The position numbers and the translations under genes were made by a program. 63,467 nucleotides of DNA from a virus (lineage: Duplodnaviria > Caudoviricetes): IMG/VR virus record IMGVR_UViG_3300037047_000283, positions 1 through 63,467 of that record. One strand, written 5' to 3'. Position 1 is the first letter of the stretch; each line of letters starts with the position of its first letter. Shown here in pieces: positions 18,998 through 63,467 of the stretch. A model generated the notes under the pieces. The model worked only from the letters and a program-made list of their open reading frames with translations. It ran no database searches and was not told the DNA's origin.

Positions 18998-19000
18998 ATC

Positions 19001-19920: not shown

Positions 19921-20032
19921 TCCTGTGTTTCGTTGCCATCTCTGCGCGTTCACGACGCGGTGGCGACCTGAGTATGTTAGCCATCTGCTGATGCATGAAC
20001 GGGAAGCAAAAAAGACGGCGAATACGCCATAA
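19886..20032 (+). CDS. 48-aa C2H2 zinc-finger protein
   Basis: Read by hand: FRCHLCAFTTRWRPEYVSHLLMH = C-x2-C-x12-H-x3-H; SD AAAGGAGG. Confidence 0.6.
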   Translation: MFRPTPRRTVRDPVFRCHLCAFTTRWRPEYVSHLLMHEREAKKTANTP

Positions 20033-20373
20033 CGGATAAGCGTCAGCGGCTCCGCCCGCTGGACAGCGCTTGTTATATTTCGGAGGTGAAAAGTGGCTAA
20101 AAAATACAAATTAGAGATGGAACCCTATAGCGACTCGAACGGTGATCCAATCTTTGCAAGCAAGGGGCACCATGATCCAGATTTATTCCTGGATGCGGCT
20201 CGGAAAGAATACGACGATAAGGTTATTGATGGAAAAGTGGAGCATGTCTATCTGCGCTGCACTCCAGCCCCAAAAGACAGCGACCACGGCTATTTGCTGC
20301 ACGATGCAACTCCCGGCCCCGGTGCATTCCCCGTCACTCGGCTGAAAGAAATATAACATCTGATTAGACCGCC
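20026..20373. mobile_element. single integron-type cassette: attC (20026-20078), gene, attI-like site (20351-20373)
   Basis: GCCATAAC...hairpin...GTTATAT; cassette ends GTTATATTTC (20072) and GAAATATAAC (20348) are exact reverse complements. Confidence 0.8.
20093..20356 (+). CDS. cassette-borne hypothetical protein
   Basis: SD GGAGG; stop codon lies inside the TAAC core. Confidence 0.75.
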   Translation: MAKKYKLEMEPYSDSNGDPIFASKGHHDPDLFLDAARKEYDDKVIDGKVEHVYLRCTPAPKDSDHGYLLHDATPGPGAFPVTRLKEI

Positions 20374-20435: not shown

Positions 20436-20436
20436 G

Positions 20437-22240: not shown

Positions 22241-22521
22241 TTCTTTCCTCCGGTGCGGGGTTTAATCAGGAAGAGGCGCGAGGCCAGTTCGGTGTCGTTG
22301 TCGGTGTCGGTGTCGTTCCCGGTGTCTCCCGGCCAGCGCTCTCCGGAGGATTTATCCGGATGCGGCAGGTGCCCGCTGTAGCCGGGACGGACCGGGTTCT
22401 CGCATGCGATATCCCAATCAGTGTCGAGGGTGTCGTCATCGAGCATGTCCTCCATGCCGTCGACGTCATTCGGGCCAGCCTTGTGCCCCTCGCTGGTTTC
22501 AAAGATCGTCCGTTTCTTCAT
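22237..22521 (-). CDS. acidic hypothetical protein
   Basis: Start re-called at MKKRTIF; ATGA overlaps on both sides. Confidence 0.55.
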   Translation of the reverse strand: MKKRTIFETSEGHKAGPNDVDGMEDMLDDDTLDTDWDIACENPVRPGYSGHLPHPDKSSGERWPGDTGNDTDTDNDTELASRLFLIKPRTGGKK

Positions 22522-25500: not shown

Positions 25501-26810
25501 GTCGCGAGGAAGTCGTTGATGAACGGCTTGTTCTCCTCGACCAGCACGTCCCCGTCTTCGTCTGGCTGATACTTCGCCATCATCGCGTCGGTGATGCGCT
25601 CGGCATCGCTGAATGCCGTCTCGACCGGCGAGTTGTGCATCAGATTGCTCTGGTTCGCTTCCCGTGCAAACTCCGGGCGGTCGACTTCGGTCTTGCGGAC
25701 GCGGACGATGACCGGGTGCTCCATCTTGGCGACGTCGTCTGACTTGAGGCCGAAGTGCTCGGCGTGATCATGGAGGTATTGCCGGTACTCCTCCCCCTTG
25801 CCGATCTTGTAGGCGAGGCCGAGGGCGATGGTGCGCCCGTTGCCGGATTCGACGATACCGTCCTTGCCGACGATCGGGGCGCCGTCGCTGGTGTGCCCGC
25901 TCGACTCCAGCAGTTCCGGCTTGATGTTGTTGGCGATGTCTTGGATCTGGATGCGGCTGGCGATGCGGGCACGGTCACGCGGCTGGATGTCCTGCGGGTA
26001 GGCGGAGTTGACGTGGCCATCGTGCGTGTGCGAGGTGGTGAGGTCGCTCATCTCGACAAGGGCGAAGGTGGAGTCGATCTTGTTCATCTTGGCGGTGTAG
26101 GAGGCGTTCTCCCGGCCCATGATGAACTTCGGCTCCTTCTTGCCGGTGTCGACGGTGGTGTGCTGGGTGCGACCGTGGACGCTCTGACCCTTGACGTCGT
26201 TCTCGGCATCGCTGCCGGCGAATTCCACCGTATGCTGGTCGCCGTCCTTCGATACGATCAGCATGTGTCCGCCCTTTTCGTATTTGTGGTGCGTCGTCTC
26301 CCGGTCGACCTTGTGGCCGAAGTGGTTAAGGAGCTGCTCCCGGTAGCTGTCGATGGCGGCGAGGTAGCCGTTCGAGCGCGAGCTGGTCATGGCGATCAGG
26401 GCGGCGGACGGATCGCCCTCGCTGGTCTTAGCTGTATCGTGCATGCGTTTGATGATCCGCTGTGCCGAGACCAGTGCCGTGTTCTCCTGATTGGCGCCTT
26501 TGATCTTCGGTGGCTCCGGGATGTCCTCTTTCTTGCCGACCTTGGCATCCGCGTCCTTGGTGACCGCTGCCACTTCCCGGTGCTTCCATCCCTTTTCCTT
26601 GAGGTGATCAAGGAGTTCGCTGCCGTGCGCGAGCTTCGACCCGGCGTGGACTTGGTCGCCGTGGGCGTTCTCGTGGCGCAGGATGTCTGGGTGTTTGCGG
26701 GTGCGCTTATCGTCATGCTCAGCGACGACCGTCCCGTCCATCCGCGTGTACTGGCGGATGTGGGACTTGAAGAGGTCGTCTGGGGCCGGGCGGCGGCGGA
26801 GGAGGTACAT
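22518..26810 (-). CDS. large polyvalent protein: ddrB-like ParB domain, repeated helical domain, C-terminal GNAT-like domain
   Basis: LTTSH..YPQDIQPRDR..DGAPIV..VESGNGRT (ddrB-ParB); ANCDVGGYTWARFGF (GNAT-like). Confidence 0.8.
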   Translation of the reverse strand: MYLLRRRPAPDDLFKSHIRQYTRMDGTVVAEHDDKRTRKHPDILRHENAHGDQVHAGSKLAHGSELLDHLKEKGWKHREVAAVTKDADAKVGKKEDIPEPPKIKGANQENTALVSAQRIIKRMHDTAKTSEGDPSAALIAMTSSRSNGYLAAIDSYREQLLNHFGHKVDRETTHHKYEKGGHMLIVSKDGDQHTVEFAGSDAENDVKGQSVHGRTQHTTVDTGKKEPKFIMGRENASYTAKMNKIDSTFALVEMSDLTTSHTHDGHVNSAYPQDIQPRDRARIASRIQIQDIANNIKPELLESSGHTSDGAPIVGKDGIVESGNGRTIALGLAYKIGKGEEYRQYLHDHAEHFGLKSDDVAKMEHPVIVRVRKTEVDRPEFAREANQSNLMHNSPVETAFSDAERITDAMMAKYQPDEDGDVLVEENKPFINDFLATLGKNEAAGLKDKYGEPNKKMIERVQAAVFAKVYKSEVLTELMVESADSDVRNIINAMSASAGTYAKIQQHSDLDVTHELLESIDHIRSAKRNKGSIDDQLAQASFDDDGKAQHVGEVTEDLTRAVHALKGSRRKLSEFFKLLTDKANQEIVEREDADQYGATDIFGNARDKKDKGAIVKETAQETANVNKSERYPGNRPEEALHDRRGAGLRQQGQGQAEKEEVAKAHVNEYDRTTASGALVHVQSHEDSRIRKYGDQIAGAQTQLDLHKVRQNRLGTIPHYHGLNDTDKDKVLAAEQERYSYLKRRDDFLDSKQRSKRESQKKKLQAGANVSHKQLLASGLAERTKAGTQMLMFRSLAGVYLLRKSTSIANHPGYVLRMVNDVNGHQVHRWVRVGSAQAGPTEGRTTPEQTREAMSAAMRRVSQPRFPETSESNLGCTRRVNQLRLMAERGNYDGIASFSTSRTRTNYQRVDDYKQALLAAGQSVASNQQAERILGAAPVPPTLTASNMQNSALLSAQRKINLLHDAATSAPDPVQALLSIQTTRSNGYTTAADNYRTALLRHFGYDNAGHPIPGHQAEGAPTLPADPITDIRHLANDPDLQTAAREESLRALRTPRTPRAPRSTRTPENPVPHSANPMNLTEAQLGFVPRPNVPLDGTTVTREGTRSNDRVTPWPNPEIRVLANRYLDQPTTLQSQARNYQAGTWQPHTPATQQVRQNVQTADMVRIRREAARLMAKLEREDVFKAKEEIGKNIRRTDVPDDLTDFKVNSIMGVDKATALQMAKTMIADFGGDTKFTVTMRGESSGINIQFAGDDGTSISRYFRRDSNGLRVYHSYFSAGSTGGGGAKGLFRASFGVYKALGVTHVDVSANCDVGGYTWARFGFVPQHWSNIKDSIRGRLDNLKRGPQEIRAGQKTTRVAQISPAVHSSIVRMLASNDPKTMWDIADMKNGGQELGKGLLLGTHWAGSLDLNDRATMRRLKKYVAEKRVAA

Positions 26811-26839
26811 GGGGGCTCCCTTATTATTTTGAGTGGATG

Positions 26840-28969
26840 TCAATCCACTTTTTTCGTGGAGAGCGTTGCTTTGTTTCCATTCGGGTGTTCGTAGTTAATG
26901 GTAGAGTGGTTTCCACCTCTCTCCGCTCCAGTCACCTTGTATCCCTGCTTGAGTAAATGTTTATGGGCCTGATCCTCTGCGTCACTACCCACTGTGGCTC
27001 CGGCTGCTTTCTTTTGGAGTTGTGCCGCTTTTTCTCTGTATCTTTTAGCTCTCGATGCATGAAGTTCGGCGTTTGATGGATTAATGTGAGACCGGGCGGC
27101 CTTTTCATTCAATTCTGCGGCATGTATCAGGACATCAGGGTCTTTACTGTCTTCTACTTTGAGGAGACCGAAAATGGCCGCTTGTTCGTCTTTTTTCCAC
27201 TGATCCTTCCCTGCACGGGAGGAAGATTTCGTTCGGCTGTCGTCATGCTCCTTCACCGCAGTCCCATCCTTGCGGACGTATGCCTTGACGTGGCTCTTCA
27301 AGAAGCTCTCCGCGATCCCGGTACTCTTCAATAAATCATCGATCTCTTTCATCTCATTCCCCTTTGCGATTATGAAGTTCTTTCCTGTGCTCGTATGAAC
27401 CCACATCCCTTTGCCGTTATCCAGTGAAAGCGACTTCGCCAGCTCGCCGCAGGCCGTCAGCACTTGCCGCCCGGCGATTCTCCGCAGCAGCAGGCCGGGT
27501 CCGACGATCTTCACCGCTCCCTGCGACTTGATCATGTCGAGGTGGTCGGTCAGCGCCCGCAGGAACTCCCGGAACTCGTCGATGTTGTTCTTGCCCTTGA
27601 GGCGCTTGATGGCCGCGTCATGAACCGGCTTAATCGCCTCATGACTCCAGTTGCGTCCGGTCGGGTGGGCGATCTCCTTGCGCTTCATGGTGGCGGCGAT
27701 ATCGGCGGCGCTCTGGGGCTCGACGATGTTGCCCAGGCCGTACTTGCGATTAAGCACCTCCTGCTCGACCGGCGTCAGCGTGCCGACCAGACCGGCGATG
27801 GCTGCCTCCCGCTCTTGGATGCGCTTGAGCTGTGCGTGCATATCTGGCGAAAAATCACTGATTGCTTTTCCATCCTTCCACCACGGGACGACGCTTCCTC
27901 CTCCGTCCAATTCATCCTCTCCGTCCTCGTCCATGTACTCCATGCGGTCGTGGTGCGCTTGGCGCTCTTTCAGGGCAGAGACGACGGCATTGCGGCCTTC
28001 CTTGGTCGCGACCTTGAAGATGCGGCTGTCCTCCGCTTCGCCAGCAAGGTGCGCCTCGAAGGAATCGATGTCCGGCTGCGGCGCTGATGCCAGCTCGCGG
28101 CGGAAGGCCATTGTGGCGGCCATCATGTAGTCGCTGACCAGATCGTTGTACTCGAAGTTGTCGTCGCTCATGTAGACGCCATTGACGCGGCGGACGTTGC
28201 CGGGGGTGACGTAGTTCGATCCGGCCAGCCCGGAGACGGTGCGGCTCATCATCGACTGGAACTTGTCGCTGGTCAGGATCTGGTCCTCGGTCAGCGTTGT
28301 CGCCGCTCTGGCAGCATCGGCGCGACGGTTGATCTCTTCAGCGGTCAGGCGGTTGGCGGTACCTCCGGTATTTTCGTATTTCGTGTTCTTGACCCGTCTG
28401 GCTTCCCCTTCGGTCAGGATCGCCGAGGCGTGGACCGCGTGCATCGGGGCGGCGGCGGTCTTGCCGTCTGCGACTCCCTGCACGACGTACATATTGCGAC
28501 CCAGCGGGCGGACGATCGTCCCCTTGCGCTGCCGGGTGATCCCTTCGTCCTTGACGTGGTAGCGGATCTTGTCGCCGGTCTCGTGGCTGCCGGTACCGGG
28601 GGCGGTGATGACAGCTTCATGCGCCGGGACGAAGACCTTGGCGGTCTTGGCCGCGTCCTTCAGCGTTTTGTGCTCGATGGCGTACTCTTTCCCGATCTGC
28701 GTCTTGCCGCTGGAGTGCGTCACTTTGACGTGGTAGTGGGTGGCATCCTTGCCGGTCACCTGCAGCGCGAACTCTCGACCGAGGCGCGACGGCATGCCTT
28801 CCGGGGTGGTGATGATCATCTCGGCGCCGGGCGATATCTGGGTCTTGCTGCGGAGGTGGTCGCGTTTCGGCGCTTTTGCCTTCCAGCCGATCACCGAGAC
28901 TTTGCCGCTGCGGTTGTTGCGGGTGAAGGCGATATGGCCGCGATCTGTCTTCGGGGCGGTGTTCGGCAT
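26840..28969 (-). CDS. multidomain head-region protein with sigma-factor-like domain
   Basis: LTPVEQEVLNRKYGL..SAADIA..SHEAIKPVHDAAIKRLK resembles sigma70 region 4; carries the KSHVKAYVRKDGT motif. Confidence 0.6.
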   Translation of the reverse strand: MPNTAPKTDRGHIAFTRNNRSGKVSVIGWKAKAPKRDHLRSKTQISPGAEMIITTPEGMPSRLGREFALQVTGKDATHYHVKVTHSSGKTQIGKEYAIEHKTLKDAAKTAKVFVPAHEAVITAPGTGSHETGDKIRYHVKDEGITRQRKGTIVRPLGRNMYVVQGVADGKTAAAPMHAVHASAILTEGEARRVKNTKYENTGGTANRLTAEEINRRADAARAATTLTEDQILTSDKFQSMMSRTVSGLAGSNYVTPGNVRRVNGVYMSDDNFEYNDLVSDYMMAATMAFRRELASAPQPDIDSFEAHLAGEAEDSRIFKVATKEGRNAVVSALKERQAHHDRMEYMDEDGEDELDGGGSVVPWWKDGKAISDFSPDMHAQLKRIQEREAAIAGLVGTLTPVEQEVLNRKYGLGNIVEPQSAADIAATMKRKEIAHPTGRNWSHEAIKPVHDAAIKRLKGKNNIDEFREFLRALTDHLDMIKSQGAVKIVGPGLLLRRIAGRQVLTACGELAKSLSLDNGKGMWVHTSTGKNFIIAKGNEMKEIDDLLKSTGIAESFLKSHVKAYVRKDGTAVKEHDDSRTKSSSRAGKDQWKKDEQAAIFGLLKVEDSKDPDVLIHAAELNEKAARSHINPSNAELHASRAKRYREKAAQLQKKAAGATVGSDAEDQAHKHLLKQGYKVTGAERGGNHSTINYEHPNGNKATLSTKKVD

Positions 28970-30148: not shown

Positions 30149-30201
30149 TTTAAAACCTTCTGCATCTCGCGATGCTCTTCCTCCCATTGAAAGGGTTTTC
30201 C

Positions 30202-31794
30202 ATGCTGACTAATCCCAATTTCTACCCGACCCCCCCCCTGCTCGCTTCCCGCATGATCTCGAAACTGAAAGGCCGTCCCAAGAAGGTGCTGGAGCCGTCC
30301 GCCGGCAAGGGTGATATCGTCAGGGCTGTCGTCTCCCGCTTCTCGCATACCTCGCAGCCAGAGGTCTCCTGCATCGAGATCGACCCGGTGCTGCAGGCTA
30401 CCCTGCGCGGCGACGGGCACCGGTTGATCGATACCGACTTCCTCGCCTACTCCGGGCAGGATAAGTTCGACGCCATCATCGCCAATCCTCCCTTTGACTC
30501 TGGCGACCTGCATCTGCTGAAAGCGATCGAGATAATGTATCGCGGCGAGATCGTCTTCCTGCTTAATGCCGAGACGCTCCGGAACCCGCATACCAATACC
30601 CGGAAGCTGCTGGTCCGGAAACTGGACGAGCTGGGCGCCTCCGTCGAGTATCTGCCGAATCAGTTTGCCGGGGCGGAGCGCAAGACCGGCGTCGAGGTGG
30701 CGCTGATCCATATCGTGATCGACCAGTCGGTCTCCGATGATCTCTTTGCCGGCGCCGACGACTTCTCCGCTCGCTGTACCGAGAAGGTTGAGGAGAAGCA
30801 CGAGCTGTCGACCGGGCGCACTCTGGAGGAGCTGGTTGCCGATTATAACGAGGTGGTCCGCGTCGGCACCGAGACCGTCGTCGCCTTCTATCGCAACTTC
30901 AAGAAGGTGGGCGGCTTCCTGCGGATGACCGATGCCGTCGAGAAGCTGCGGATTTCGTCGTCGTCGGATGTGACCGGCATGATGCAGGATGCGGTGAATA
31001 AACTGCTGATCGATGTCCGGGCGTGCTTCTGGCGTAAGACGCTGGACTTGAAGGAGGTCCGCAATCGCCTGACCACCAAGAAGGCAGCCGAGTTCGAGCA
31101 TGCTCTGGCCGACCGCTGCTATATGGACTTCACCGAGTCGAACGTGCGGACATTTGTGCTGAATCTCATGGACTCCTACGAGCAGACGCTGACCGATGCC
31201 ATCGTCGATATTTTCGATATGTTCACGGTCCGGCATTGTTACGGGGAGAGCGGCGTCCATGAGAAGAACGTGCATTATTTTAACGGCTGGAAGACGAACA
31301 AGTCCTTCAAGGTGGGCCGGCGCGTCGTCGTGCCGATCCGGGGCGGCTATTGCGGGAATGCGTTCTTCGAGTATGGGCGCTGGCAGCTGTCGTGGCAGGC
31401 CAAGGACCAGCTCCGCGATATCGATCTGGTCGCGTCTTACTTTTCCGGGCTCCGGGATTACCTCTCCATGTCGCAGGCGCTCATGGATGCGTTCAGCGCC
31501 GGGCCGAAGGCTGACCGGCACTCTGGTATCGAAGCTGCGCACTTCACTGTCACGGCCCACAAGAAGGGGACCATCCATATCACTTTCAACGACGAGGACG
31601 TGCTGCGGCGCTTCAACTTCATCGCCTGCCGGGGCAAGGGCTGGCTGCCATGCGACTACGGCAAGAAGCGTTATCAGGAGCTGTCGGATCCGGAGCGGGC
31701 GGTTGTGGACGCCTTCGAGGGCGAGCGGTCCTATACCGCTGCTCTGGGGCGCCCGGTCTTTGCTCCCTCGGCGCTGCTGCAGATCGCGGCGTGA
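30202..31794 (+). CDS. N6-adenine DNA methyltransferase with DUF4942-like C-terminus
   Basis: FYPTP, motif I LEPSAGKG, motif IV NPPF; C-terminal GWKTNK..HKKGTIHITF. Confidence 0.85.
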   Translation: MLTNPNFYPTPPLLASRMISKLKGRPKKVLEPSAGKGDIVRAVVSRFSHTSQPEVSCIEIDPVLQATLRGDGHRLIDTDFLAYSGQDKFDAIIANPPFDSGDLHLLKAIEIMYRGEIVFLLNAETLRNPHTNTRKLLVRKLDELGASVEYLPNQFAGAERKTGVEVALIHIVIDQSVSDDLFAGADDFSARCTEKVEEKHELSTGRTLEELVADYNEVVRVGTETVVAFYRNFKKVGGFLRMTDAVEKLRISSSSDVTGMMQDAVNKLLIDVRACFWRKTLDLKEVRNRLTTKKAAEFEHALADRCYMDFTESNVRTFVLNLMDSYEQTLTDAIVDIFDMFTVRHCYGESGVHEKNVHYFNGWKTNKSFKVGRRVVVPIRGGYCGNAFFEYGRWQLSWQAKDQLRDIDLVASYFSGLRDYLSMSQALMDAFSAGPKADRHSGIEAAHFTVTAHKKGTIHITFNDEDVLRRFNFIACRGKGWLPCDYGKKRYQELSDPERAVVDAFEGERSYTAALGRPVFAPSALLQIAA

Positions 31795-35287: not shown

Positions 35288-36309
35288 GTTCCAGAGTGCT
35301 TACGAGTTGTCGTCCATCGAGCGGGCCATGACGCCGCCGTCTCCTGAGAAGGTCGCCGAGGCTGCCAAGGTCGCGGCCCTTCTTGCCGCTGGTCGCTTCG
35401 TCGTTATGGCGGAGGTTCTTGCTCATTGCCGCTTCACCGATGCCGTCCTTGGCTGCGATTACTATTACGCGACCGACTGCGCCAGCTACGACGAAGCCAC
35501 CGCTTGGATCGAGGAGCATTATCTGGACGCCGAGGGATTCTCGGTTCGCTGCCCGGAGGGCTTCGTGGTCCCTCGCTTTGTCTATGTTGACGACGACGCA
35601 TTTTAACTTTTCCCTCTGGAGGCTTCCCCATGAAAGGTCTTACTTGCTCCATCCTGAAAGCCAAGGATTTCCCTGACTGCTCCTGCGACGGGATATCGTC
35701 CCGGTTCTCGCAGGTCACGCTCTGCGGTCCCGATATCGAAGGCGTCTTTGAGCCGTCCCCGGACGCTCCGGAGGTTCGCCTTGTGAAGCGCAATCTGGTC
35801 CGGGATGAGATTTACGTCCATGCCCGTCCCGCCGAGATTCCCGCCGGCACTCACTCTGCGATGGGTGGCTGCTTCATCTGGTCGTGCGATGCCCGCTTTC
35901 CGTCGCGGCAGCCGATCCCCCTTCATGACCGAGTCGAGAGGAGTCATAACCCATGCAGTCTCACTACGCGATAAACGTGTCCCGCAATGGCCGGTTCTTT
36001 TTCCGCACCGGCAATGAAATCACCGCTCCCGATGTCGCCGAGGAGGTCGTGACCGAGTTGCGGCTGCGGCTTCCGGCTGCTGACGGCTTTGTCGTCACTT
36101 GTCACCACTGGACGTGCTCCGGCCATATCTATATGCCGTTCTCCGTTGAGACGGAGCCGGTCGCTGGTCCTGTTATTGCCCGGTGTCCGTCTTGCACGAC
36201 ACTCTGTGCCAAGCTGCAAACTTCTCCCTGCTTTATCTGTTCCGAGTGCGGCTTGGAGTTCCCCTTGGTGGTACCCGGTGGCAAGGAGGTGTCCTGTGAC
36301 CCGCTCTGA
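35280..36309 (+). CDS. three hypothetical genes (35280-35606, 35630-35974, 35953-36309)
   Basis: SD-bearing consecutive ORFs; 35630 has the common phage motif MGG.F..S.D.RF..PIPLHDR. Confidence 0.6.
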
Positions 36310-36562
36310 TCATGTTGCCGCTCATGGCGACGGCGCTGTCTTCACCGAGGACTGGACCGGTCCCCGCTTTCGTTACGGGTACCGCAACCGTCCGTTCGCC
36401 ATGTGCCATCAGCCTCGAAATTGGATTATCGGAGCTGTCAATGCCGACTTCCGCGATCCTGTGGCTGGCGTGCGTCACGGTTGTGTCGATTATCCCTTCC
36501 AGCTGTCAGACCACGAGGTCTATTCGTTCGAGCTGGTCTTTCTTGGCGAGGTGACGCCATGA
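36296..36562 (+). CDS. DarA C-terminal-like domain protein (defence-against-restriction associated)
   Basis: YGYRNRPF...QP...HG.VDY...LS..EV.SFEL pattern. Confidence 0.6.
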   Translation: MTRSDHVAAHGDGAVFTEDWTGPRFRYGYRNRPFAMCHQPRNWIIGAVNADFRDPVAGVRHGCVDYPFQLSDHEVYSFELVFLGEVTP

Positions 36563-36708
36563 CCCGCTGCCTCCTGATCCTGATCTTCCTTGCCTCCCCG
36601 TGCCTCTCCGCCGGGGAGGACTGACACATAACGATTGCGTTTGTGCGGCAAGTGGAGTGCAGACAGCACCAATAATCTGGTTATATTTTTTCAAGAGGTA
36701 TCGAAAAG

Positions 36709-36891
36709 ATGCACAAAATCTTATGTATATTTGGGTTACATGACTACAAAAAGCCTTACGTCAGAGAGCACAAGAGAGAAGTACGTTGTGACCCTCGGCC
36801 TGTGATGGTGACAGATTACGCTGTGCGGAAAACCTGCAAAGTCTGCAGTAAAGATAAGCTGGTAATTCGAGTAGATTGCGAATTAAAGTAA
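36709..36891 (+). CDS. cassette gene 1 (C.FGLHDY..CxxC small Zn-binding protein)
   Basis: Flanked by GTTATATTT / AAATATAAC. Confidence 0.7.
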   Translation: MHKILCIFGLHDYKKPYVREHKREVRCDPRPVMVTDYAVRKTCKVCSKDKLVIRVDCELK

Positions 36892-36935
36892 ATATAACGG
36901 ATCATTATTGACTGGTGAGAGAAGGAGCGAAGCGG

Positions 36936-37241
36936 ATGAACGAATCCACGTTGAATTATTGGTTAGGCGTTCTTCGGGAGTGCTGTCAAAGAGAGGTTAA
37001 CGCTCTCGGTGGGGTGAAGGGAAATCTCCCGTCTCACTATCTGAAATACGGGGATAGTGGAATGAAGAACATCGGGGCTTTAACTGTATCTATCTCCGCA
37101 CACACTGGTAAAAATTGCCAGCAGGTTAGACGCTCACTGCATCAGCTCCGCATTGCGGGAAAAGTACTTTGCTTGAACGGCAAGGGATGTATTTGCCGAT
37201 GGTGGCCCATTGGTATGGCAGAAGAGTTGTTGAACGCCTAA
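36936..37241 (+). CDS. cassette gene 2, winged-HTH-like
   Basis: SD and ATG lie in the attC loop; flanked by GTTAGGCGTT / AACGCCTAAC. Confidence 0.65.
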   Translation: MNESTLNYWLGVLRECCQREVNALGGVKGNLPSHYLKYGDSGMKNIGALTVSISAHTGKNCQQVRRSLHQLRIAGKVLCLNGKGCICRWWPIGMAEELLNA

Positions 37242-37300
37242 CGATTTTAAGCTGTGCCGCTCGACGGCACGAGCGCCTTGTTATGGCGCGGGAGACGAGG

Positions 37301-37441
37301 ATGGAAAACGAAATTGTTGAAAAATGTGAAAAATGTGGGAGTGAAAACGTAGAGGTGCAGTGGGCACCCTTCGGGCCTGACAAATGCGCCGAGCCTGTCT
37401 CTGTGCTATGTCTGGATTGCGGTGCAGATCGGGAGATTTAA
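37301..37441 (+). CDS. cassette gene 3, zinc ribbon
   Basis: CEKCGS..CLDCG; flanked by GTTATGGCGC / GCGCCATAAC. Confidence 0.65.
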   Translation: MENEIVEKCEKCGSENVEVQWAPFGPDKCAEPVSVLCLDCGADREI

Positions 37442-37518
37442 GCGCCATAACGGCTTTAAGCTAAAGGGCTTGCGTTTAATGAAACAGGAAATATGAGACA
37501 CAACGGAGGTTGTTATCA

Positions 37519-37779
37519 ATGGATGAGACACAAAATCCCGCAGAGAGTAGCAAGTCCACTTTGAGCGATTGGTTAGTCCGATTTGGAGACAGGGAAGAAA
37601 CCATTTACAGCGTCGAATTGCACTTGTTGCGCCGTATTGCGGAAGCAAGCAGTGACATGTTAAAGGCGAGGCACTGGCCTGAATTTTGTGATGCTTGCGG
37701 TGGACAAGAAAAGCTGAACACGGCACACGCTGACACTGTTGCCGAATACAATCAATGGCTCTCTGATGGAGAGGGCTAA
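37519..37779 (+). CDS. cassette gene 4, hypothetical
   Basis: SD GGAGG and ATG in the attC loop; stop codon in TAAC. Confidence 0.65.
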   Translation: MDETQNPAESSKSTLSDWLVRFGDREETIYSVELHLLRRIAEASSDMLKARHWPEFCDACGGQEKLNTAHADTVAEYNQWLSDGEG

Positions 37780-37869
37780 CGCTTGAGCGTCACCGTTCGC
37801 GGGTTCTTTGCGGTACGGTGCACAGCGTTGGTTATGCCAGCGCTGCAATTTAAGGAGGTAATAGAAATC

Positions 37870-38073
37870 ATGCCTGAACAAGAATATGATCTGAGACCCG
37901 TTGGTGTTCGATATGTTTGTGATAAGTGCGGAGTTGGCGTAATGACTCCTACTGGAACGATGCTTTGTAGTTATCCTCCACAGTGGCCGCATAAATGTGA
38001 CCATTGCGGAATCATCGAGAACATGCAGGAGAAATACCCAACTGTAAGATACCGGATGCCTGCTGGTTTATAG
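37870..38073 (+). CDS. cassette gene 5, zinc ribbon
   Basis: CDKCG..SYPPQWPHKCDHCG; SD AAGGAGG. Confidence 0.7.
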   Translation: MPEQEYDLRPVGVRYVCDKCGVGVMTPTGTMLCSYPPQWPHKCDHCGIIENMQEKYPTVRYRMPAGL

Positions 38074-38138
38074 CCATAACGATTGCGTTTGTGCGGCTCG
38101 TCCGCACCAGTGATTTTTTAGACCATTGAGGAGGATGT

Positions 38139-38411
38139 ATGCAGGATGTCACCAATAAAGGGAAAGAACTTATCGAACGGTGGAAGGATGCCACCAGAGG
38201 GGAAGAATCCGCTAAAGAGAAGCTACTAAAGGCGCAACGAGAACTACAAACGGCAGAAGAGCATCTTGCTCACTGGCTTCTACCTGAAGACGCCAAGGAT
38301 GGTGAGAAGTTTTGTGTCTGGTATGGCGACTCGTTGATTACCGCCTCGGAGAGTGATACCAACGGGTATGAAGTCACTGTACGAAAACGCGGAACAAGTT
38401 TGATGGTCTAA
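38139..38411 (+). CDS. cassette gene 6, hypothetical
   Basis: Flanked by TTAGACCA / TGGTCTAAC. Confidence 0.7.
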   Translation: MQDVTNKGKELIERWKDATRGEESAKEKLLKAQRELQTAEEHLAHWLLPEDAKDGEKFCVWYGDSLITASESDTNGYEVTVRKRGTSLMV

Positions 38412-38469
38412 CGGATTAAGCGTCACCCGTCTATCGGGCAAGCGGTGGTTAAACCGCGAAAGGATATTT

Positions 38470-38838
38470 ATGCAAGAAATGATTAGCAGGCTGAGAAGCT
38501 ATCAGAACGGAGTGCATGGCCCGTTCTTCCTCGAGGTCGCCGCAAAATTGGAACATATGTGGCGCAGTGCTCAACCGGTAATACCTGAAGGATGCAGACT
38601 GGTGATAGTTCCCCGTCAACCCACTGCTGACGAAACAGAGTATCGGGCGTATCTGGAGAAGTTACAACCTGACACCCTCCGAAATATGATCATTGACTTA
38701 TCGGCAGCACAGAGCGAGCAAGGGGAAGCTCTCCAACTGATTGCTGCGGCATCCCTCGGACAGACAGGGCCAGAGGCGCGAGGCCAGTTAGAGAAGGTCA
38801 AAAAGGTTGCAAAGGGCGCGTTGGCGGAGTCGGTTTAA
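38470..38838 (+). CDS. cassette gene 7, hypothetical
   Basis: Flanked by GTTAAACCG / CGGTTTAAC. Confidence 0.7.
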   Translation: MQEMISRLRSYQNGVHGPFFLEVAAKLEHMWRSAQPVIPEGCRLVIVPRQPTADETEYRAYLEKLQPDTLRNMIIDLSAAQSEQGEALQLIAAASLGQTGPEARGQLEKVKKVAKGALAESV

Positions 38839-39050
38839 CTACTGATTATACCGCCAGTTCGTCGGCCTAACGCTTATTTTAATAAACGGCGAATATCTAA
38901 GACAATCGCACAGTTAATTTTAGTTTCAGCGGATAACAAAATCACGAAAGACCGCCAATACTTGTGATATCATCGCGCCCGGCCACCGTGCCGGGCCTTC
39001 CCTCTCAGCGCCCCTGCGGCCTATTCCTTTCCCCTGCCAAGGAGTTTCCC

Positions 39051-40105: not shown

Positions 40106-40191
40106 AACCACCAGTTTACGCGGGTTTCTTTTCTCTATTGAAGGGATGATCCTTCCGAATTCAGATGCGCCAGCGGGCGCCGGAGGTTGCT
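40104..40191 (+). repeat. leader element copy 5
   Basis: Same consensus; GCGCC-AGCG-GGCGC-CGGAGG. Confidence 0.9.
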
Positions 40192-40761
40192 ATGAAACGT
40201 CGCACTCAGAAGCGCGGGCCTTGCCCGATATGTGGTCAGCTCCATGCTCTTAATGCCGCCGGTCGCGTTGCCGACCACGGCTATACTGTTCTGTCTGGCT
40301 GGGGCTCTACGATGAACGCCTGCTCCGGCAGCCGGGCTCCGCACTTCGGTACCGAGAAGGGCCGCGATTGGCTGTCGAAGCAGATCGTTCGCTGGCAGGA
40401 GTCGATTGCTCGCTACGAACTGGTCCTCGCCGAAGGCACCGCGAAGGCTCCGGTCGCGAAGTTGCAGCAGGATATCGCCGGCCTTCTCATGGCGATCGCC
40501 GAGTCCACTAAACGAATCGCCGCTTGGCAGCCTGTGGAGCCGGTTGAGGTCGTGATCGAGGACGTGGCTCCGACCGTTCATTTCGCTGCGAAGTCCTACG
40601 GGTACCGGGCGGCGATCTGCTGCGCCTCGGCAATGGGTGCTGCAAGATTTCGCGGCGTGACGTCGGCGGTTGCGGAGGAAGTCACTTGTTCCCGCTGCCT
40701 CAAGTCCTTGGCGCTCCGAGCCGAGCATGCGGCGAAGAAAGCGGCACGGGAGGCGTGCTAA
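40192..40761 (+). CDS. Cys/His-rich hypothetical protein
   Basis: G.CPIC..VADHGY..CSGS and VTCSRC motifs. Confidence 0.7.
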   Translation: MKRRTQKRGPCPICGQLHALNAAGRVADHGYTVLSGWGSTMNACSGSRAPHFGTEKGRDWLSKQIVRWQESIARYELVLAEGTAKAPVAKLQQDIAGLLMAIAESTKRIAAWQPVEPVEVVIEDVAPTVHFAAKSYGYRAAICCASAMGAARFRGVTSAVAEEVTCSRCLKSLALRAEHAAKKAAREAC

Positions 40762-45156: not shown

Positions 45157-46020
45157 TCAGTCTCCTATTTCGATGGTGGTAATTTTTTGTTCACTTATTT
45201 CGTTGCTGATTGCGCCCGCCTTGCTCAACATCTTTTCCACCAGAAGTTCTTGCCAGTATCCTCTTCGATGGCTTGTCTTCCCGTGGCACGGAGTGCAGAG
45301 CGCTATCAGGTTGTCGTGACTAAGGTTGTGCTTGTCGTAATTTATGTGATGGACTGGCATCCTCCGCTTTGTGTACGGTTGCCCGCATATCTGACAGATG
45401 AATCCGTCCCGTGCTCTGATCGTGTTTCGTAACTCTTCGTTCCATTCTTGCGGTCTTGCTTCGAATGTCCTGCCATCTATCCAGTGAGGGCTGTTTTCCC
45501 CGGTGTAGTATTTCGGCTGGCAGTTGACGCACCGATATGGGAGATCGCGTTGTTCAAATTTATTGGCCCATGTTCTGTCGTAGCGTTTTTCTGCTCCGCA
45601 ATCTCGACAGACCATGATCTTTGATCCGCCCTTCCAGTTGGGGTTGTGTTCTCCTGTGCGGATCTTCTTGACCTTCTTTTTTTCGCCACCTCGCCAGTTC
45701 GGGTTCATTTCCCCTGTTGGCGTGCGGTAGCAGTCTCGGCAGACATACTTTTCGCTTTTAAATTTACTGATCTCCCATGCTGCCGCCTGTCGTTCTTTTC
45801 CGCACTTTGTGCATTTTATCGTTGTCTTCCCTCCCCTGTAGCCGAGGGCGTTCTCTCCGACTCTGTGCTTCACTGTGCAGCTCTTGCATCGGTATGGATT
45901 TTTCAGCTGTATCGCTTCGTGCCTTTTGTAGATCTTCTCTGCTCCGCAAGACGTGCAGGCCGCGATGACTTTGCAGCCTTTGAATATTGGGAACCTGTCT
46001 TGCTCGCAGCCATCATTCAT
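45157..46020 (-). CDS. HNH homing endonuclease with Zn-finger/NPNWKGG repeats
   Basis: RDGFICQICG..VHHI..NLIALC..CH; repeated CxxC and NPNW[RK]GG. Confidence 0.85.
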   Translation of the reverse strand: MNDGCEQDRFPIFKGCKVIAACTSCGAEKIYKRHEAIQLKNPYRCKSCTVKHRVGENALGYRGGKTTIKCTKCGKERQAAAWEISKFKSEKYVCRDCYRTPTGEMNPNWRGGEKKKVKKIRTGEHNPNWKGGSKIMVCRDCGAEKRYDRTWANKFEQRDLPYRCVNCQPKYYTGENSPHWIDGRTFEARPQEWNEELRNTIRARDGFICQICGQPYTKRRMPVHHINYDKHNLSHDNLIALCTPCHGKTSHRRGYWQELLVEKMLSKAGAISNEISEQKITTIEIGD

Positions 46021-47692
46021 CTATTGTTATCTCGATAAATTTCTTGCTCTTCTTTTTTTTGAATGACTTCTGGACGTCTTCGCCTTGATCGTCCTGTTGA
46101 TCGTCTTGTGGTTGGCTTAACATCTGGAAAGTATTAATATAATTTGTCACAGGAACATCAGCAGGGTAGTTATATGGGTTACTATCGTCGTCAAGACTCC
46201 CGATTATGTCGCGATTTTCTTCCATCCGTGCCTCGTTCCGGGTAATCCATTTACTGACACGTTGCGTCCGCAAGTCTACTGTTAACTTCTCGTCATCCTT
46301 CTCGATGCCGGTGACGATCAGCTTCAGGTCGTCGTAGCGGGGCTTGATGATCGCGTCCGTGAACCAGTCGGCCATATCCTCGATCGACGGTATCAGGCTC
46401 AACTCCTTGTTGAACTCGATCTCGTCGATCGGGCTGGCGCTGCTGAGTGCCGAGCCGCCCTGTCCGGAGTCCATCTGCATGTTCAGGGTGCTGGGGTGGG
46501 CGCCATACGCGGCGCACTTGATCATGATCAGCAGCCGGACGAATTCGTTGAACAGCATGTCCTTCGGCGTGTCGCGGAGTTTGTGCGCCTCGATCTTGAA
46601 GCCGTCGACGCTGCCGCTGGGGATGACCGGCAGGCGCCAGTAGTTGCCGGCGCCGTGGGTGTCGCCGATCAGCATCTGCTTGAAGGCCTGCAGGCCTTCC
46701 TTGTCGAAGTCACCGGCCACCGACAGGATCGCTTCCGGGTAGTTGGTCTTGAACATCTCCCGGTTGAAGCTCCATGCGGCCATGAGCGTGGCGGTGACTT
46801 CGAGGCTGATTTCGAGGCGGCTGATGCCGTAGCCGAAGGTGTTGATTTCGTCGCTGGGGTTGGACAGGTGGATGCTGAGTTCGTCGGAGGTGAAGGCGTC
46901 AACGAGCATGCCGTCGACGATCTGGACGTAGCTGGATTTGGTCATGTCGAAGCCAGTCGCTTCTGACATGCGGTAGGCGGTGGCGGCGTTGACCGTCTTC
47001 TTGCCGCCGTTGTTTTTGGCGTTCTTGGCGGCCCACTCCTTCATCGCCTCGTCGACGTTCTTGACCGTCTCGCCCGGCAGCGCATAAAAAGCGGCGTAGC
47101 CTTTGCCGTCGGCTCGCTTCATGCGGCGGATGCACTTGCGGTCAATGATCAGCTCGGTCTTGGTCAGGGAGGCGGCCAGCTCTTTGATGCGGCCATGCGG
47201 GCGGACCCGGTTCGGGTAGAACTGAGTGTACTTCTCCGGGCACGGGTCGTCGACCAGCGATTCCATTTCGCGGCAGCGGGCGTCGATCTCCTTGCTCCCC
47301 TTGAACGTCGGGTCGTCGTGGCGGACGTGGACGACCTTGAAGCCGATCTTCGCCGGGTCGTAAGTCCGCTTCCAGATGCGTTTCATCTGGTCCACTCTGG
47401 CCCGGATGAGGATGCCGTCGACGAACGATTGCCGGGACGCTTGGTAGAGGGTGCGGAAGCCCGGCGTTCCCTGCGGCTTCTCCCTTGCGCCGTAGAGGGA
47501 CATATTTTGCAGCATGTATTTGGAGAAGAGTGTGCCGCGTTTCTCCTCCTCTTCAGCTGCAATTTTGCGGGATTCTTCTGCGACCGCCTTGTTCAGCGAA
47601 TCAATGCTCCGCGAAGAGACTAGAAGTCCCGCCGGAGTCTCCATCATGCCGCCTGCGCGTGGAAGCGCTTTTTTCAGATCGTCTTTGTCCAT
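46013..47692 (-). CDS. portal protein
   Basis: 559 aa; YGISRLE, DMLF.EF...ICAAYG..P, ITRNEAR portal motifs. Confidence 0.85.
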   Translation of the reverse strand: MDKDDLKKALPRAGGMMETPAGLLVSSRSIDSLNKAVAEESRKIAAEEEEKRGTLFSKYMLQNMSLYGAREKPQGTPGFRTLYQASRQSFVDGILIRARVDQMKRIWKRTYDPAKIGFKVVHVRHDDPTFKGSKEIDARCREMESLVDDPCPEKYTQFYPNRVRPHGRIKELAASLTKTELIIDRKCIRRMKRADGKGYAAFYALPGETVKNVDEAMKEWAAKNAKNNGGKKTVNAATAYRMSEATGFDMTKSSYVQIVDGMLVDAFTSDELSIHLSNPSDEINTFGYGISRLEISLEVTATLMAAWSFNREMFKTNYPEAILSVAGDFDKEGLQAFKQMLIGDTHGAGNYWRLPVIPSGSVDGFKIEAHKLRDTPKDMLFNEFVRLLIMIKCAAYGAHPSTLNMQMDSGQGGSALSSASPIDEIEFNKELSLIPSIEDMADWFTDAIIKPRYDDLKLIVTGIEKDDEKLTVDLRTQRVSKWITRNEARMEENRDIIGSLDDDSNPYNYPADVPVTNYINTFQMLSQPQDDQQDDQGEDVQKSFKKKKSKKFIEITIDE

Positions 47693-62245: not shown

Positions 62246-62274
62246 ATAGTAACTGCTCCTGTTCCCCATGTCAA
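62246..62274 (-). promoter_or_regulatory. sigma70-type promoter with conserved motif
   Basis: TTGACA-TGGGGAAC(17-nt spacer)-TACTAT. Confidence 0.7.
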
Positions 62275-62282
62275 AGGTTTTT

Positions 62283-63467
62283 ATGGCAAAAATTTACGAG
62301 CACAAACATCACGGTCTTCAGCTGCGTTTCACCATTTATTTCCCGGAGGGGAAGGTCGTCCGGTATCGGTTCAGCCGGTCTCGTGACGAGATGTATTCCA
62401 TGCATCGGGCTGCTGAGACGCTAGAGATTGCCACTCGCCGCTGTGATGCTTCCTTCCGTGAGGTTGAAGTTGCCGTCAATCTAGGCCTGATTTCCAGTTC
62501 GGAGGCTGCGCTGTTGACGGGAGGGAAACGGTCCTCGTCTTACGATCTCGATCTGATCATTGAACGGTGGACCGTCTCTGACTCTCTGGTCAATTCTCCT
62601 TATGGCCATGAGGTCAATATGCGGCGAGGTAAGCGCCTGCGTCTCTGGCTGGAATCGAACCCGATCCCGAAGATCGACGAGGCCGACGTGAAGCGTTACA
62701 TCCAGCGGCGCCGTGACGGGCTACTGACCTACCCCCATCCCCGGACCGGCATCACCGTTGTCGGCTGCTCGACGAAGACCATCACCAATGAGTTGCAGAT
62801 TCTTCGCTCGATCATAGATGAGGCCGTGAAGCTGAAAATGGTCGACGTGAATGTTGCCCGCACTGTTGACCTCCCGGTGAAGAAGTCAAAGTTTCGCCGC
62901 TCCATGTCGATGGACGAAGTCTCTGCTCTTCTGGAGGCCGCCCGGCAGTCGAGTCATCTCTGTCATGGATATGCGGTCGAGGTCTTGTCCTGTGCTGTTT
63001 ATGCCGGTCTGCGGCGCTCGGAGATTCGCACTCTGCAGTGGCGAGACATCGACTTCGACAACGGTCGGATTCGGATTGTGCAGAAGGCCGTCCCCGGAGA
63101 GGAGGATTTTATTCCGAAGGGGGGGAATGCCGGTGTGACGACGATGCCGGATCGTCTTGCCGAGATTCTCGGAAAACTGGAGCGCAAGGGGGATTGGGTC
63201 TTCGGTGGCGAGAAACCTCTGGTCCTCACCGCCTTCTGGCAACTCTTCAAGGAGGTGGCATCCCGTGCTGGGCTTCCATCCGATCTGTCCTTGCATCATG
63301 CTCGTCACACCTACGGGTCTTGGCTGCTCCGCATGACCGGCGATCTGTCGTATGTCCAATCCGAGATGCGCCACACCGATATCAACACGACCCGGAATTA
63401 CATGCACACGACCGCCTCAGAAAAGCCCGCCCGGCTGCTCGATTTCGGAGACAAAAAAAAGGATTAA
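62283..63467 (+). CDS. int: tyrosine recombinase / phage integrase
   Basis: GLRRSE (R), HHARH (H-x-x-R), MRH, RNY catalytic set. Confidence 0.9.
   Translation: MAKIYEHKHHGLQLRFTIYFPEGKVVRYRFSRSRDEMYSMHRAAETLEIATRRCDASFREVEVAVNLGLISSSEAALLTGGKRSSSYDLDLIIERWTVSDSLVNSPYGHEVNMRRGKRLRLWLESNPIPKIDEADVKRYIQRRRDGLLTYPHPRTGITVVGCSTKTITNELQILRSIIDEAVKLKMVDVNVARTVDLPVKKSKFRRSMSMDEVSALLEAARQSSHLCHGYAVEVLSCAVYAGLRRSEIRTLQWRDIDFDNGRIRIVQKAVPGEEDFIPKGGNAGVTTMPDRLAEILGKLERKGDWVFGGEKPLVLTAFWQLFKEVASRAGLPSDLSLHHARHTYGSWLLRMTGDLSYVQSEMRHTDINTTRNYMHTTASEKPARLLDFGDKKKD

What the first reader, a model, noticed from the sequence alone, without database searches (positions are those of the whole stretch)
36626..38855. 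A phage-borne array of seven integron gene cassettes with no integron integrase in the window
Seen: seven short genes, more AT-rich than their flanks, are each separated by an imperfect palindrome running from ..TAAC to GTT.. . The two ends of each gene unit are reverse complements of each other: GTTATATTT/AAATATAAC (36680/36890), GTTAGGCGTT/AACGCCTAAC (36962/37233), GTTATGGCGC/GCGCCATAAC (37280/37442), GTTAGTCC/GGGCTAAC (37572/37773, one mismatch), GTTATG/CATAAC (37831/38075), TTAGACCA/TGGTCTAA (38118/38404) and GTTAAACCG/CGGTTTAAC (38448/38831). Established: this within-cassette complementarity is the footprint of cassettes that circularise and reinsert by attC recombination at G|TT. Inference: the phage acquires or shuffles accessory genes with integron chemistry, probably borrowing a host IntI.
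Basis: partly seen in the sequence, partly recalled or inferred. Interest (0 to 1): 0.92.

Follow-up and report, generated by a model that had tools for sequence, protein, structure and literature searches.

The report
Integrase-less integron cassette docks in a phage
A prophage carries two integron-type docking sites loaded with eight small mobile gene cassettes but has no integron integrase of its own, so it probably relies on an integrase supplied by another phage or by the host to swap accessory genes.

Summary
Seven small + strand genes (36.7-38.8 kb) are separated by TAAC...GTTA imperfect palindromes. The two ends of each gene unit are complementary well beyond the core (only 1 of 5040 pairings scores as high). 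The two ends of one palindrome are not.

It is an integron-type cassette array in a phage that has no IntI. The + strand is the attC bottom strand, each unit is attC followed by its gene, and the crossover lies in the TAAC box.

The array ends on the right in a half-site, TAAC|TACTGATTATACCGCC. This matches the attI next to curated-cutoff IntI genes in three other records. A second dock holding one cassette lies at 20.03-20.37 kb.

A complete relative (G001) also lacks IntI. It has no array at the main locus and a different array of about four cassettes at the second locus. Homology there breaks at the TAAC box.

The IntI-bearing relatives are themselves phages, ordered cassettes, attI, intI, terminase, all co-directional.

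Phage-borne arrays without integrase were published in 2023. This is therefore a new variant: attI docks, genes on the bottom strand, and a likely phage-encoded IntI donor. Activity is inferred, not shown.

The parts
36626..36686 (+). attC0, the distal (left-most) complete attC. The + strand is the bottom strand. It belongs to cassette 1.
   Evidence: R2 18.1 bits, E 0.074, + strand; not in the training set. GC drop begins here.
36709..36891 (+). Cassette 1 gene, 60 aa, Cys-rich.
   Evidence: ORF list. Ends GTTATATTT/AAATATAAC complementary. Only sub-threshold Pfam hits.
36892..36968 (+). attC1, a long and weak site that contains the RBS and start of gene 2.
   Evidence: R1 10.8 bits, E 3.8. 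Not found by R2. The flanking core boxes fit by end complementarity.
36936..37241 (+). Cassette 2 gene, 101 aa.
   Evidence: no family. Ends GTTAGGCGTT/AACGCCTAAC.
37236..37286 (+). attC2.
   Evidence: R2 28.8 bits, E 1.5e-4; not in the training set.
37301..37441 (+). Cassette 3 gene, 46 aa, zinc-ribbon-like.
   Evidence: Sub-threshold zinc-ribbon hits, including Lar_restr_allev at E 0.032.
37445..37578 (+). attC3. The 3' box is either GTTAT at 37512 (the model's choice) or GTTAG at 37572 (by end complementarity).
   Evidence: R2 11.6 bits, E 3.2, for 37445-37518. End complementarity with 37773-37780 has one mismatch.
37519..37779 (+). Cassette 4 gene, 86 aa.
   Evidence: no family.
37774..37837 (+). 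attC4, the best site.
   Evidence: R1 67.9 and R2 62.6 bits. 90% identical over 92 nt to a site in the unrelated viral contig G009.
37870..38073 (+). Cassette 5 gene, 67 aa, zinc ribbon, a phage protein family.
   Evidence: phrog_9369, E 1.7e-10.
38074..38123 (+). attC5, with a degenerate 3' box (TTTAGAC).
   Evidence: R2 17.9 bits, E 0.08; not in the training set. Sequence.
38139..38411 (+). Cassette 6 gene, 90 aa.
   Evidence: no significant family.
38406..38454 (+). attC6.
   Evidence: R1 42.1 and R2 41.7 bits.
38470..38838 (+). Cassette 7 gene, 122 aa, next to the attI and so presumably the latest insertion. Its stop codon lies in the TAAC box.
   Evidence: Only 3 homologues at E<=0.001 among 5.8 billion clusters.
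38836..38962 (+). attI module. It comprises the junction TAAC|TACTGATTATACCGCC, a second TAAC box at 38868-38871, and an AT-rich tail. No intI follows.
   Evidence: The core matches the attI beside true intI genes in G008, G010 and G250. About 127 nt are homologous to the end of the G001 locus-2 array; a blastn segment shows 85% over 81 nt.
20027..20078 (+). Second dock: an attC whose TAAC box holds the stop codon of a conserved phage gene.
   Evidence: R1 60.1 and R2 59.0 bits. Homology with G001 stops at this TAAC box.
20093..20356 (+). Second dock: its single cassette gene, 87 aa.
   Evidence: Ends GTTATATTTC/GAAATATAAC are complementary over 10 nt.
20354..20373 (+). Second dock: attI core TAAC|ATCTGATTAGACCGCC, followed by a hairpin with a T-run that reads like a terminator (about 20396-20440).
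   Evidence: Differs at one position in 24 nt from the attI beside the G010 intI.
62268..63467 (+). The phage's own tyrosine integrase. It is an ordinary phage integrase, not an IntI, and is context only.
   Evidence: PF00589 at 92.5 bits. TIGR02249 at 28.6 bits against a cutoff of 265.

Best explanation
The region is an integron platform without its integrase, carried by a temperate phage.

Structure. Seven cassettes, each made of an attC followed by a small gene on the same strand, are stacked against an attI site at 38836-38871. A second attI at 20354 holds one cassette. The + strand is the recombinogenic (bottom) strand of the attC sites.

Proposed mechanism. An integron integrase supplied in trans would cut in the TAAC box. 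The most likely donor is a co-resident phage of the IntI-encoding kind that has the same attI core. Otherwise the donor is the host. This integrase would insert circular cassettes at attI, so the newest cassette lies on the right. It could also excise them between attC sites.

Expression. [quoted passage not shown] They can therefore be expressed by read-through from phage promoters rather than from an integron Pc promoter.

Cargo. The genes are small proteins of unknown function, three of them zinc-ribbon-like. Related phage arrays carry DNA methyltransferases, so counter-defence or host-takeover roles are likely.

What is shown and what is inferred.
- Shown: the anatomy, the polarity, the homology of attC and attI to IntI-associated sites, the absence of IntI, and the difference in cassette content from a relative.
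- Inferred: present-day activity, the source of IntI, how the genes are expressed, and what the cargo does.
For: - End complementarity marks the gene units, not the palindromes.
- The attC family has a conserved asymmetric hairpin. In 14 sequences 98.4% of cells pair, 13 cells carry compensatory changes, and 0 of 500 shuffles reach this. Two bulges lie on the 3' arm of the + strand.
- Every model hit in the window is on the + strand.
- The same model finds arrays beginning at the 5' side of IntI genes that pass the curated TIGR02249 cutoff of 265: G010 (352 bits), G008 (293 bits) and G250 (290.6 bits). The hits are on the intI strand.
- In these three records, a half-site with the window's motif stands where the array meets intI, about 40-85 nt before the intI start codon. 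The motif is TAAC, two variable bases, then CTGATT.
- The window's array has a complete attC at its left end and only this half-site at its right end.
- Genes lie on the model strand in 13 of 14 inter-attC intervals of the IntI-bearing arrays, and in 15 of 17 intervals of the integrase-less phage arrays.
- G001, a CheckV-100% relative, has no IntI. It lacks the main array: 48 bp stand in place of 2.4 kb.
- At the second dock G001 has a different array of about four cassettes. Homology breaks at the TAAC box and resumes at the terminator.
- Precedent: phage attC sites are recombined by IntI1 (Qi et al. 2023, PMC9892861, Results read in full).
Against: - No recombination was observed. The one sequencing run that holds the region is the likely source, is kept only as contigs, and shows no joints.
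- The main-locus difference from G001 is not cassette-precise. It also includes a 65-bp high-GC stretch with a 21-codon ORF and the 127-bp attI module. The module therefore arrived by some other kind of recombination.
- One attC (38074-38123) has a mutated core, and two (36892, 37445) are weak, so parts of the array may be frozen.
- Cassette turnover rests on one related lineage (G001/G002).
- The exact attI motif was found in only 1 of 239 genomes of the one bacterial order searched. The host is unknown. No IntI donor has been placed in the same cell.
- IntegronFinder's own attC model could not be run.
Confidence: 0.75

Rival explanations
1. Passive fossil. A block of cassettes plus attI was copied once from an IntI-bearing phage or a chromosomal integron by illegitimate or homologous recombination. 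It now sits in the phage as ordinary moron DNA and has no further integron activity.
For: - The main-locus indel against G001 is not bounded by core sites and includes non-cassette DNA.
- The same 127-nt attI module lies at a different locus in G001, which implies block transfer.
- One core is mutated to TTTA, and two attC sites are weak.
- No IntI in the record or in G001.
- No variant joints in the one run.
Against: - There are two separate docks with two different attI alleles in one genome.
- At the second dock the window and G001 share the flanks but hold 1 versus about 4 unrelated cassettes, with the left break at the TAAC box.
- End complementarity is still perfect over 9-10 nt in 4 of the 8 units, so decay is slight.
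Confidence: 0.2
2. The phage's own tyrosine recombinase (62268-63467), or another phage enzyme, carries out the cassette exchange, without any IntI.
For: It is the only tyrosine recombinase in the record.
Against: - It scores 28.6 bits on the integron-integrase model against a cutoff of 265. A gene at the syntenic position in G001 scores the same, and G001 holds different arrays.
- Every attI of this type that stands beside an integrase gene stands beside a true IntI.
Confidence: 0.03
3. Not integron-related. The palindromes are terminators or phage-specific shuffling repeats, such as the promoter-stem-loop modules of T4-type phages (recalled, not checked in a call).
For: Some hairpins are also picked up by the simple terminator scan (10 found against 4.2 expected). 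The genes are typical small phage accessory genes, for example phrog_9369.
Against: - End complementarity belongs to the gene unit, not to the palindrome.
- The same site family forms arrays next to curated-cutoff IntI genes.
- There is an attI half-site at the array end.
- Promoter-like matches are no more frequent than in shuffles (5 against 2.6 +/- 1.8).
Confidence: 0.02

Closest known systems
Clusters of attC sites lacking an integrase (CALINs) in phage genomes, especially the CALIN with its own attI in Shewanella prophage M16-3 (Qi et al. 2023, PMC9892861; Results section read)
   Same: A cassette array inside a phage with no adjacent IntI. An attI stands at the start of an integrase-less array. 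Related arrays carry DNA methyltransferase cargo (as in that paper).
   Different: - Two docks in one phage.
- All genes lie on the attC bottom strand and point toward attI.
- The attI type matches IntI genes that are themselves phage-encoded and sit upstream of the terminase.
- A complete relative with different cassettes at the same dock.
- That paper's supplementary tables could not be opened, so overlap in such details cannot be excluded.
CALIN as defined by IntegronFinder (Cury et al. 2016, PMC4889954; one passage read)
   Same: Two or more attC sites clustered with no intI nearby.
   Different: The definition rests on IntegronFinder's covariance model, which could not be run here. A CALIN is not required to keep an attI; this one does.
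Typical integron, in which intI and the cassettes are transcribed divergently from attI (description in PMC3607928, passage read)
   Same: The geometry of the sites. The attI lies at the intI-proximal end, each cassette's attC lies distal to it, and the crossover is in the core site.
   Different: No intI in the window. Cassette genes run toward attI instead of away from it, so a Pc promoter at the attI/intI side cannot drive them.
Treponema-type 'inverted' integrons (PMC3607928, passage read)
   Same: intI and the cassette genes are co-directional.
   Different: In Treponema, intI is transcribed toward attI and the cassettes away from it. In the IntI-bearing relatives found here, the cassettes are transcribed toward attI and intI away from it (order: cassettes, attI, intI).

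Membership tests
Integron gene cassette array / CALIN | Core sites of the form RYYYAAC ... GTTRRRY bounding each recombination site | tested here: met
   TAAC and GTTA boxes at 7 of 8 sites; the site at 38117 has TTTA.
Integron gene cassette array / CALIN | Imperfect palindrome with conserved asymmetry (bulged bases on one arm) that sets the strand | tested here: met
   In alignment A2, 98.4% of cells pair, there are 13 compensatory cells, and 0 of 500 shuffles reach this. There are two bulges on the 3' arm. All window hits are on the + strand. The bulged bases are G/C and A. Canonical sites are recalled to bulge T and G on the bottom strand; this was not checked against a reference model.
Integron gene cassette array / CALIN | Crossover inside the core, so that the two ends of a cassette are complementary rather than the two ends of a site | tested here: met
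   Own-pair runs are 5, 7, 6, 1, 2, 6, 5; same-site runs are 1, 0, 0, 0, 0, 0, 0. Only 1 of 5040 permutations reaches the total.
Integron gene cassette array / CALIN | Sites recognised by the IntegronFinder or HattCI attC models | not testable with these tools
   Rfam gave no attC-type match: 3 chance-level hits to unrelated families. Substitute test: a model built here finds arrays beside curated-cutoff IntI genes in G008, G010 and G250.
Integron gene cassette array / CALIN | No integron integrase nearby | tested here: met
   TIGR02249 best score 28.6 bits against a cutoff of 265 in the whole record. The record is only 72% complete, but the complete relative G001 has none either.
Integron gene cassette array / CALIN | IntI-dependent excision and insertion | not testable with these tools
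   The only sequencing run is kept as contigs and shows no joints.
Complete integron | intI gene adjacent to attI | tested here: not met
   After the attI module there are 93 nt of non-coding DNA and then conserved phage sequence.
Complete integron | attI site at the proximal end of the array | tested here: met
   The half-site TAAC|wwCTGATTnnACCGCC and a second TAAC box 28 nt on are homologous to the sites 40-85 nt before three true intI genes.
Complete integron | Pc promoter reading from the attI/intI side into the cassettes | tested here: not met
   The genes run toward attI. Promoter-like matches are not enriched.
Treponema-type inverted integron | intI transcribed toward attI | tested here: not met
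   In G008, G010 and G250 the intI start codon is the end next to attI. This cannot be assessed in the window itself, which has no intI.

The most novel reading that the evidence does not exclude
Some phages keep integrase-less attI 'docks' that exploit integron integrases encoded by other phages.

Those other phages form a so-far undescribed family of phage-native integrons, ordered cassettes, attI, intI, terminase, all co-directional. Their cassettes are coded on the attC bottom strand, so the phage operon expresses them by read-through.

Together the two kinds of phage would form a phage-to-phage exchange network for small accessory and counter-defence genes. This network would be separate from the chromosomal and plasmid integrons studied so far.
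Probability: 0.35. Interest if true: 0.85.

Novelty: new variant of a known kind. Interest (0 to 1): 0.66.

Why it matters
Integrons are seen as bacterial devices, and their appearance in phages has been reported as rare capture events.

In this case a phage keeps the docking site and the cassettes but not the enzyme. Its site type matches integrases that sit in a fixed place in other phage genomes. If these sites are active, integron chemistry is a regular way for phages to trade small accessory genes.

The reversed gene polarity also shows that cassette expression need not depend on a Pc promoter.

The finding offers concrete substrates for bench tests: the attI, the attC sites and candidate IntI genes.

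Tried and rejected
- **Rfam scan of 35.5-40 kb.** Only three chance-level hits to unrelated families and no attC-type match.
- **Plain minimum-energy folding of the bottom strands.** This gave mixed z-scores (0.20 to -2.92) and did not recover the R-box pairing. It was dropped in favour of comparative models.
- **A home-made TAAC...GTTA hairpin scanner.** It was too unspecific, with 40 hits over the window, and was dropped.
- **Megablast of 15 kb against isolated phages.** No match.
- **Host assignment.**
  - The window's terminase was not found in 121 sampled genomes of the order that holds G006-G008.
  - The best isolated-phage terminases are at most 34.5% identical.
  - The host remains unknown.
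- **Cassette proteins.**
  - tblastn of the eight proteins against all fetched loci gave no hits.
  - Cassette 7 has only 3 homologues.
  - No function could be assigned.
- **More distant relatives (L007/L008, L064/L065).** They have no arrays at either locus.
- **The two IntI genes of G007.** They have a different attI context.
- **Sequencing runs.** One DNA run was found, marked as the possible source and kept as contigs. There were no joints, so nothing can be said for or against excision. It showed a 4-SNP bubble at 38451-38565.
- **Literature.** Searches for a described phage-native integron family, or for reversed cassette polarity, found only Qi et al. 2023 as relevant. Subscription journals are not covered. 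The supplementary tables of Qi et al., which list all 17 phage CALINs with their contexts, could not be opened.
Full report
**What the window is.** The window is a whole IMG/VR record, classed as a provirus, 63,467 bp, with a CheckV estimate of 72% complete. It carries several phage genes:
- a tail-tube initiator, a tail sheath and an SU10-type capsid protein;
- a portal (46013-47692) and a GpA-type terminase (52365-54371);
- an ordinary tyrosine integrase at the right end (62268-63467; PF00589 at 92.5 bits).

It is syntenic over most of its length with an 89.9-kb viral contig, G001, rated 100% complete. The region in question lies between phage genes that read on the + strand. These are an adenine methyltransferase at 30172-31794, phrog_18878 at 35953-36309 and phrog_17208 at 40165-40761. 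The array is therefore truly inside a phage.

- GC drops from about 0.60 to 0.44-0.50 between 36.6 and 38.8 kb.
- Seven + strand ORFs of 46-122 aa have good ribosome-binding sites. They are separated by elements that begin with TAAC and end with GTTA, or TTTA in one case.
- The two ends of each gene unit match as reverse complements for 5, 7, 6, 1, 2, 6 and 5 nt beyond GTTA.
- No non-own pair among 56 reaches 5 nt.
- Only 1 of 5040 permutations reaches the observed total.
- The two ends of the same palindrome match for 1, 0, 0, 0, 0, 0 and 0 nt.

This pattern is expected when a contiguous palindromic site has been split by a crossover inside its core and rejoined with other partners. It is the classical argument for integron cassettes (established knowledge, recalled).

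**Are the palindromes attC sites?** Rfam gave nothing, and IntegronFinder's model is not available here, so I used a comparative route.
- A pattern taken from three window sites occurs 3 times in the window and 0 times in 100 shuffles. It matched 14 viral-contig stretches and 14 genome-contig stretches.
- By eye, 8 of the 14 viral loci have the same paired arms. So do 3 of the 14 genome loci: MAGs labelled Geobacteraceae, Trichlorobacter and Deltaproteobacteria. The rest look like chance matches and were left out.
- Fourteen sequences were aligned: 3 from the window and 11 from elsewhere, with one exact duplicate dropped. They share an asymmetric hairpin in which 98.4% of cells pair, 13 cells carry compensatory changes, and no shuffle of 500 reaches this. 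Every slid register pairs in at most 50% of cells.
- Two bases are bulged on the 3' arm of the strand that is + in the window.
- Model R1 was built from this alignment. Model R2 was built from 26 hits. Both find only the predicted sites in the window, all on the + strand.
- R2 scores were 62.6, 59.0, 41.7, 28.8, 18.1, 17.9 and 11.6 bits. The sites at 37236, 36626 and 38074 were not in any training set.
- The site at 36892-36968 is seen only weakly (R1, 10.8 bits).

**Link to real integron integrases.** I searched the records that hold the matching sites with the NCBIfam integron-integrase model (cutoff 265 bits). Scores were 352 bits in G010, 293 in G008, 290.6 in G250, and two hits (474 and 405 bits) in G007.
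- In G010, G008 and G250 the model's hits form arrays that begin at the 5' side of intI and lie on the intI strand.
- The junction between array and intI is a half-site with no partner arm. It reads TAAC|ATCTGATTCGACCGCC in G010, TAAC|TTCTGATTCTACCGCC in G008, and TAAC|TTCTGATTCTACAGAAC in G250. It stands about 40-85 nt before the intI start codon.
- The window's array ends with TAAC|TACTGATTATACCGCC at 38836.
- An alignment of seven such sites shows a shared core and a short palindrome with compensatory variation. A second TAAC or TAAA box lies 27-28 nt further on.
- By position and homology this is an attI.
- The two IntI genes of G007 have a different attI context.

**Polarity.** On that model the array should start with a bare GTT and end with a complete site. 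The opposite is seen: a complete site at the left end (36626-36686) and a half-site plus attI at the right end.
- Taken with the position relative to intI in three relatives and the arm asymmetry, this means the + strand is the attC bottom strand.
- The crossover is in the TAAC box.
- Each cassette is 'attC then gene'.
- This removes the oddity that gene 2 starts inside 'the previous' site, because that site belongs to the same cassette as the gene. The same holds for gene 4 if its site ends at 37572.
- It also means the genes are coded on the bottom strand and run toward attI.
- This is not peculiar to the window. The longest ORF is on the model strand in 13 of 14 inter-site intervals of the IntI-bearing arrays, and in 15 of 17 intervals of the integrase-less phage arrays.
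- Typical integrons transcribe intI and the cassettes divergently from attI. Treponema integrons transcribe intI toward attI (PMC3607928, passage read).
- The order found here (cassettes, attI, intI, all co-directional, with the intI start next to attI) is a third layout. I found no description of it in the six searches made. The library does not cover subscription journals.

**A second dock and a comparison with a relative.** Another first-reader note led me to 20027-20373.
- It holds a strong attC (R1 60.1 bits), an 87-aa gene with 10-nt complementary ends, and TAAC|ATCTGATTAGACCGCC. This differs at one position in 24 from the G010 attI. A hairpin with a T-run that reads like a terminator follows.
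- In G001 the flanks of this locus are conserved. Between them lies a different 2.2-kb array of about four cassettes. One gene is an N6/N4 DNA methyltransferase.
- Homology with the window stops at the TAAC box, which also holds the stop codon of the upstream phage gene. It resumes at the terminator.
- The G001 array ends in an attI module that is homologous over about 127 nt to the module at the end of the window's main array.
- At the main locus G001 has nothing: 48 bp replace the window's 36554-38961.
- G001 has no IntI.
- So the same phage lineage holds different cassettes at a shared dock. The attI module itself has moved as a block.
- The evidence for turnover comes from one related lineage (G001 and the near-identical G002). 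More distant relatives have no arrays.

**Where might the integrase come from?** The IntI-bearing records turned out to be phages.
- G008's contig reads: primase, polymerase processivity factor, cassettes, attI, intI, large terminase, portal, all on one strand.
- G250 has the same order. G010 has a large terminase on the intI strand a few genes beyond intI.
- A search of viral contigs with the G250 IntI returned 50 loci.
- Ten of 10 IntI homologues tested pass the curated cutoff, at 287-426 bits.
- Ten of 10 large ORFs tested downstream are large terminases.
- By tblastn with 13 terminases, 15 of the 50 loci have one downstream on the same strand, 6-3462 nt after intI. None has one in another arrangement, and 35 gave no hit with these queries.
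- R2 gave 15 hits at E<=0.1 in 49 of these loci. All are on the intI strand, and 14 of 15 are upstream of intI.
- So there is a set of phage genomes with their own integron in a fixed position, and the window's attI cores match theirs.
- The window's phage is of another kind, with a GpA-type terminase and no protein-level similarity to G010.
- A co-resident IntI-encoding phage is thus at least as likely a donor as the host chromosome.
- I could not show co-occurrence. The exact attI motif is in 1 of 239 genomes of the one order searched, and the host is unknown.

**What is known.** Qi et al. 2023 (PMC9892861, Results read in full) screened 10,705 phage genomes.
- They found 3 complete integrons, one In0 element and 17 integrase-less attC clusters.
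- One such cluster, with its own attI, lies in a Shewanella prophage.
- They showed that IntI1 recombines 5 of 6 phage attC sites.
- They noted DNA methyltransferase cargo.

The headline of the finding is therefore not new. The additions here are:
- the attI docks, two in one genome;
- the consistent bottom-strand coding;
- the match to phage-encoded IntI genes;
- the comparison with a complete relative.

**Verdict.** This is a real integron-type cassette array with attI, in a phage without IntI (confidence about 0.85 for the anatomy). That it is in active use through an IntI supplied in trans is the most likely reading, but it is inferred (about 0.55). The main rival is a passively inherited block (about 0.2).

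Noticed in passing
L052 (G008:C53) 1-20000; L019 (G250); L048/L049 (G010); L067-L116: A recurrent layout in viral contigs: cassette array, attI, true IntI (TIGR02249 287-426 bits in 10 of 10 tested), then the large terminase on the same strand. The terminase was confirmed in 10 of 10 tested ORFs, and in 15 of 50 loci by tblastn. This looks like a phage-native integron family. I found no description of it in the papers searched.
   Followed up: partly
window 37768-37858 versus L023 8468-8559 (= L060 15630-15720); window 37280-37310 versus L058 6297-6330: The attC plus the short leader and ribosome-binding site downstream of it are shared (90% over 92 nt) between cassettes that carry different genes. 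So the breakpoint lies between leader and gene, not at the core site. This may bear on how new cassettes are made.
   Followed up: no
L060 13400-16830 (G009) and L058 5801-8046 (G001): Integrase-less arrays in other phages carry DNA methyltransferases. Pfam found N6_N4 twice and C5 once, plus a sub-threshold Dam-like hit, among 10 cassette genes tested.
   Followed up: partly
L009 98-117 (G005, at the contig edge): An unrelated 28-kb viral contig begins 97 nt before a 20-nt site identical to the window's main attI junction. No IntI is in that record. The assembly may have broken in a variable array.
   Followed up: no
window 36561-36626: A 21-codon high-GC ORF with a signal-peptide-like sequence lies between the last conserved phage gene and the first attC. 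It is absent from G001.
   Followed up: no
window 38451-38565: The one run that holds the region has two alternative 115-nt contigs differing at 4 positions inside cassette 7 (depth 3.8 versus 8.9). This is strain-level variation.
   Followed up: no
L052 7981-8172 (G008 array): To my eye, one cassette of an IntI-bearing phage array encodes a small Cys-rich protein that resembles Lar-type restriction alleviation proteins. This was not tested against a profile.
   Followed up: no
window 22518-26843: A 1441-aa protein with a ddrB-like ParB domain (PF18763, E 4.9e-37) lies in the head region.
   Followed up: no
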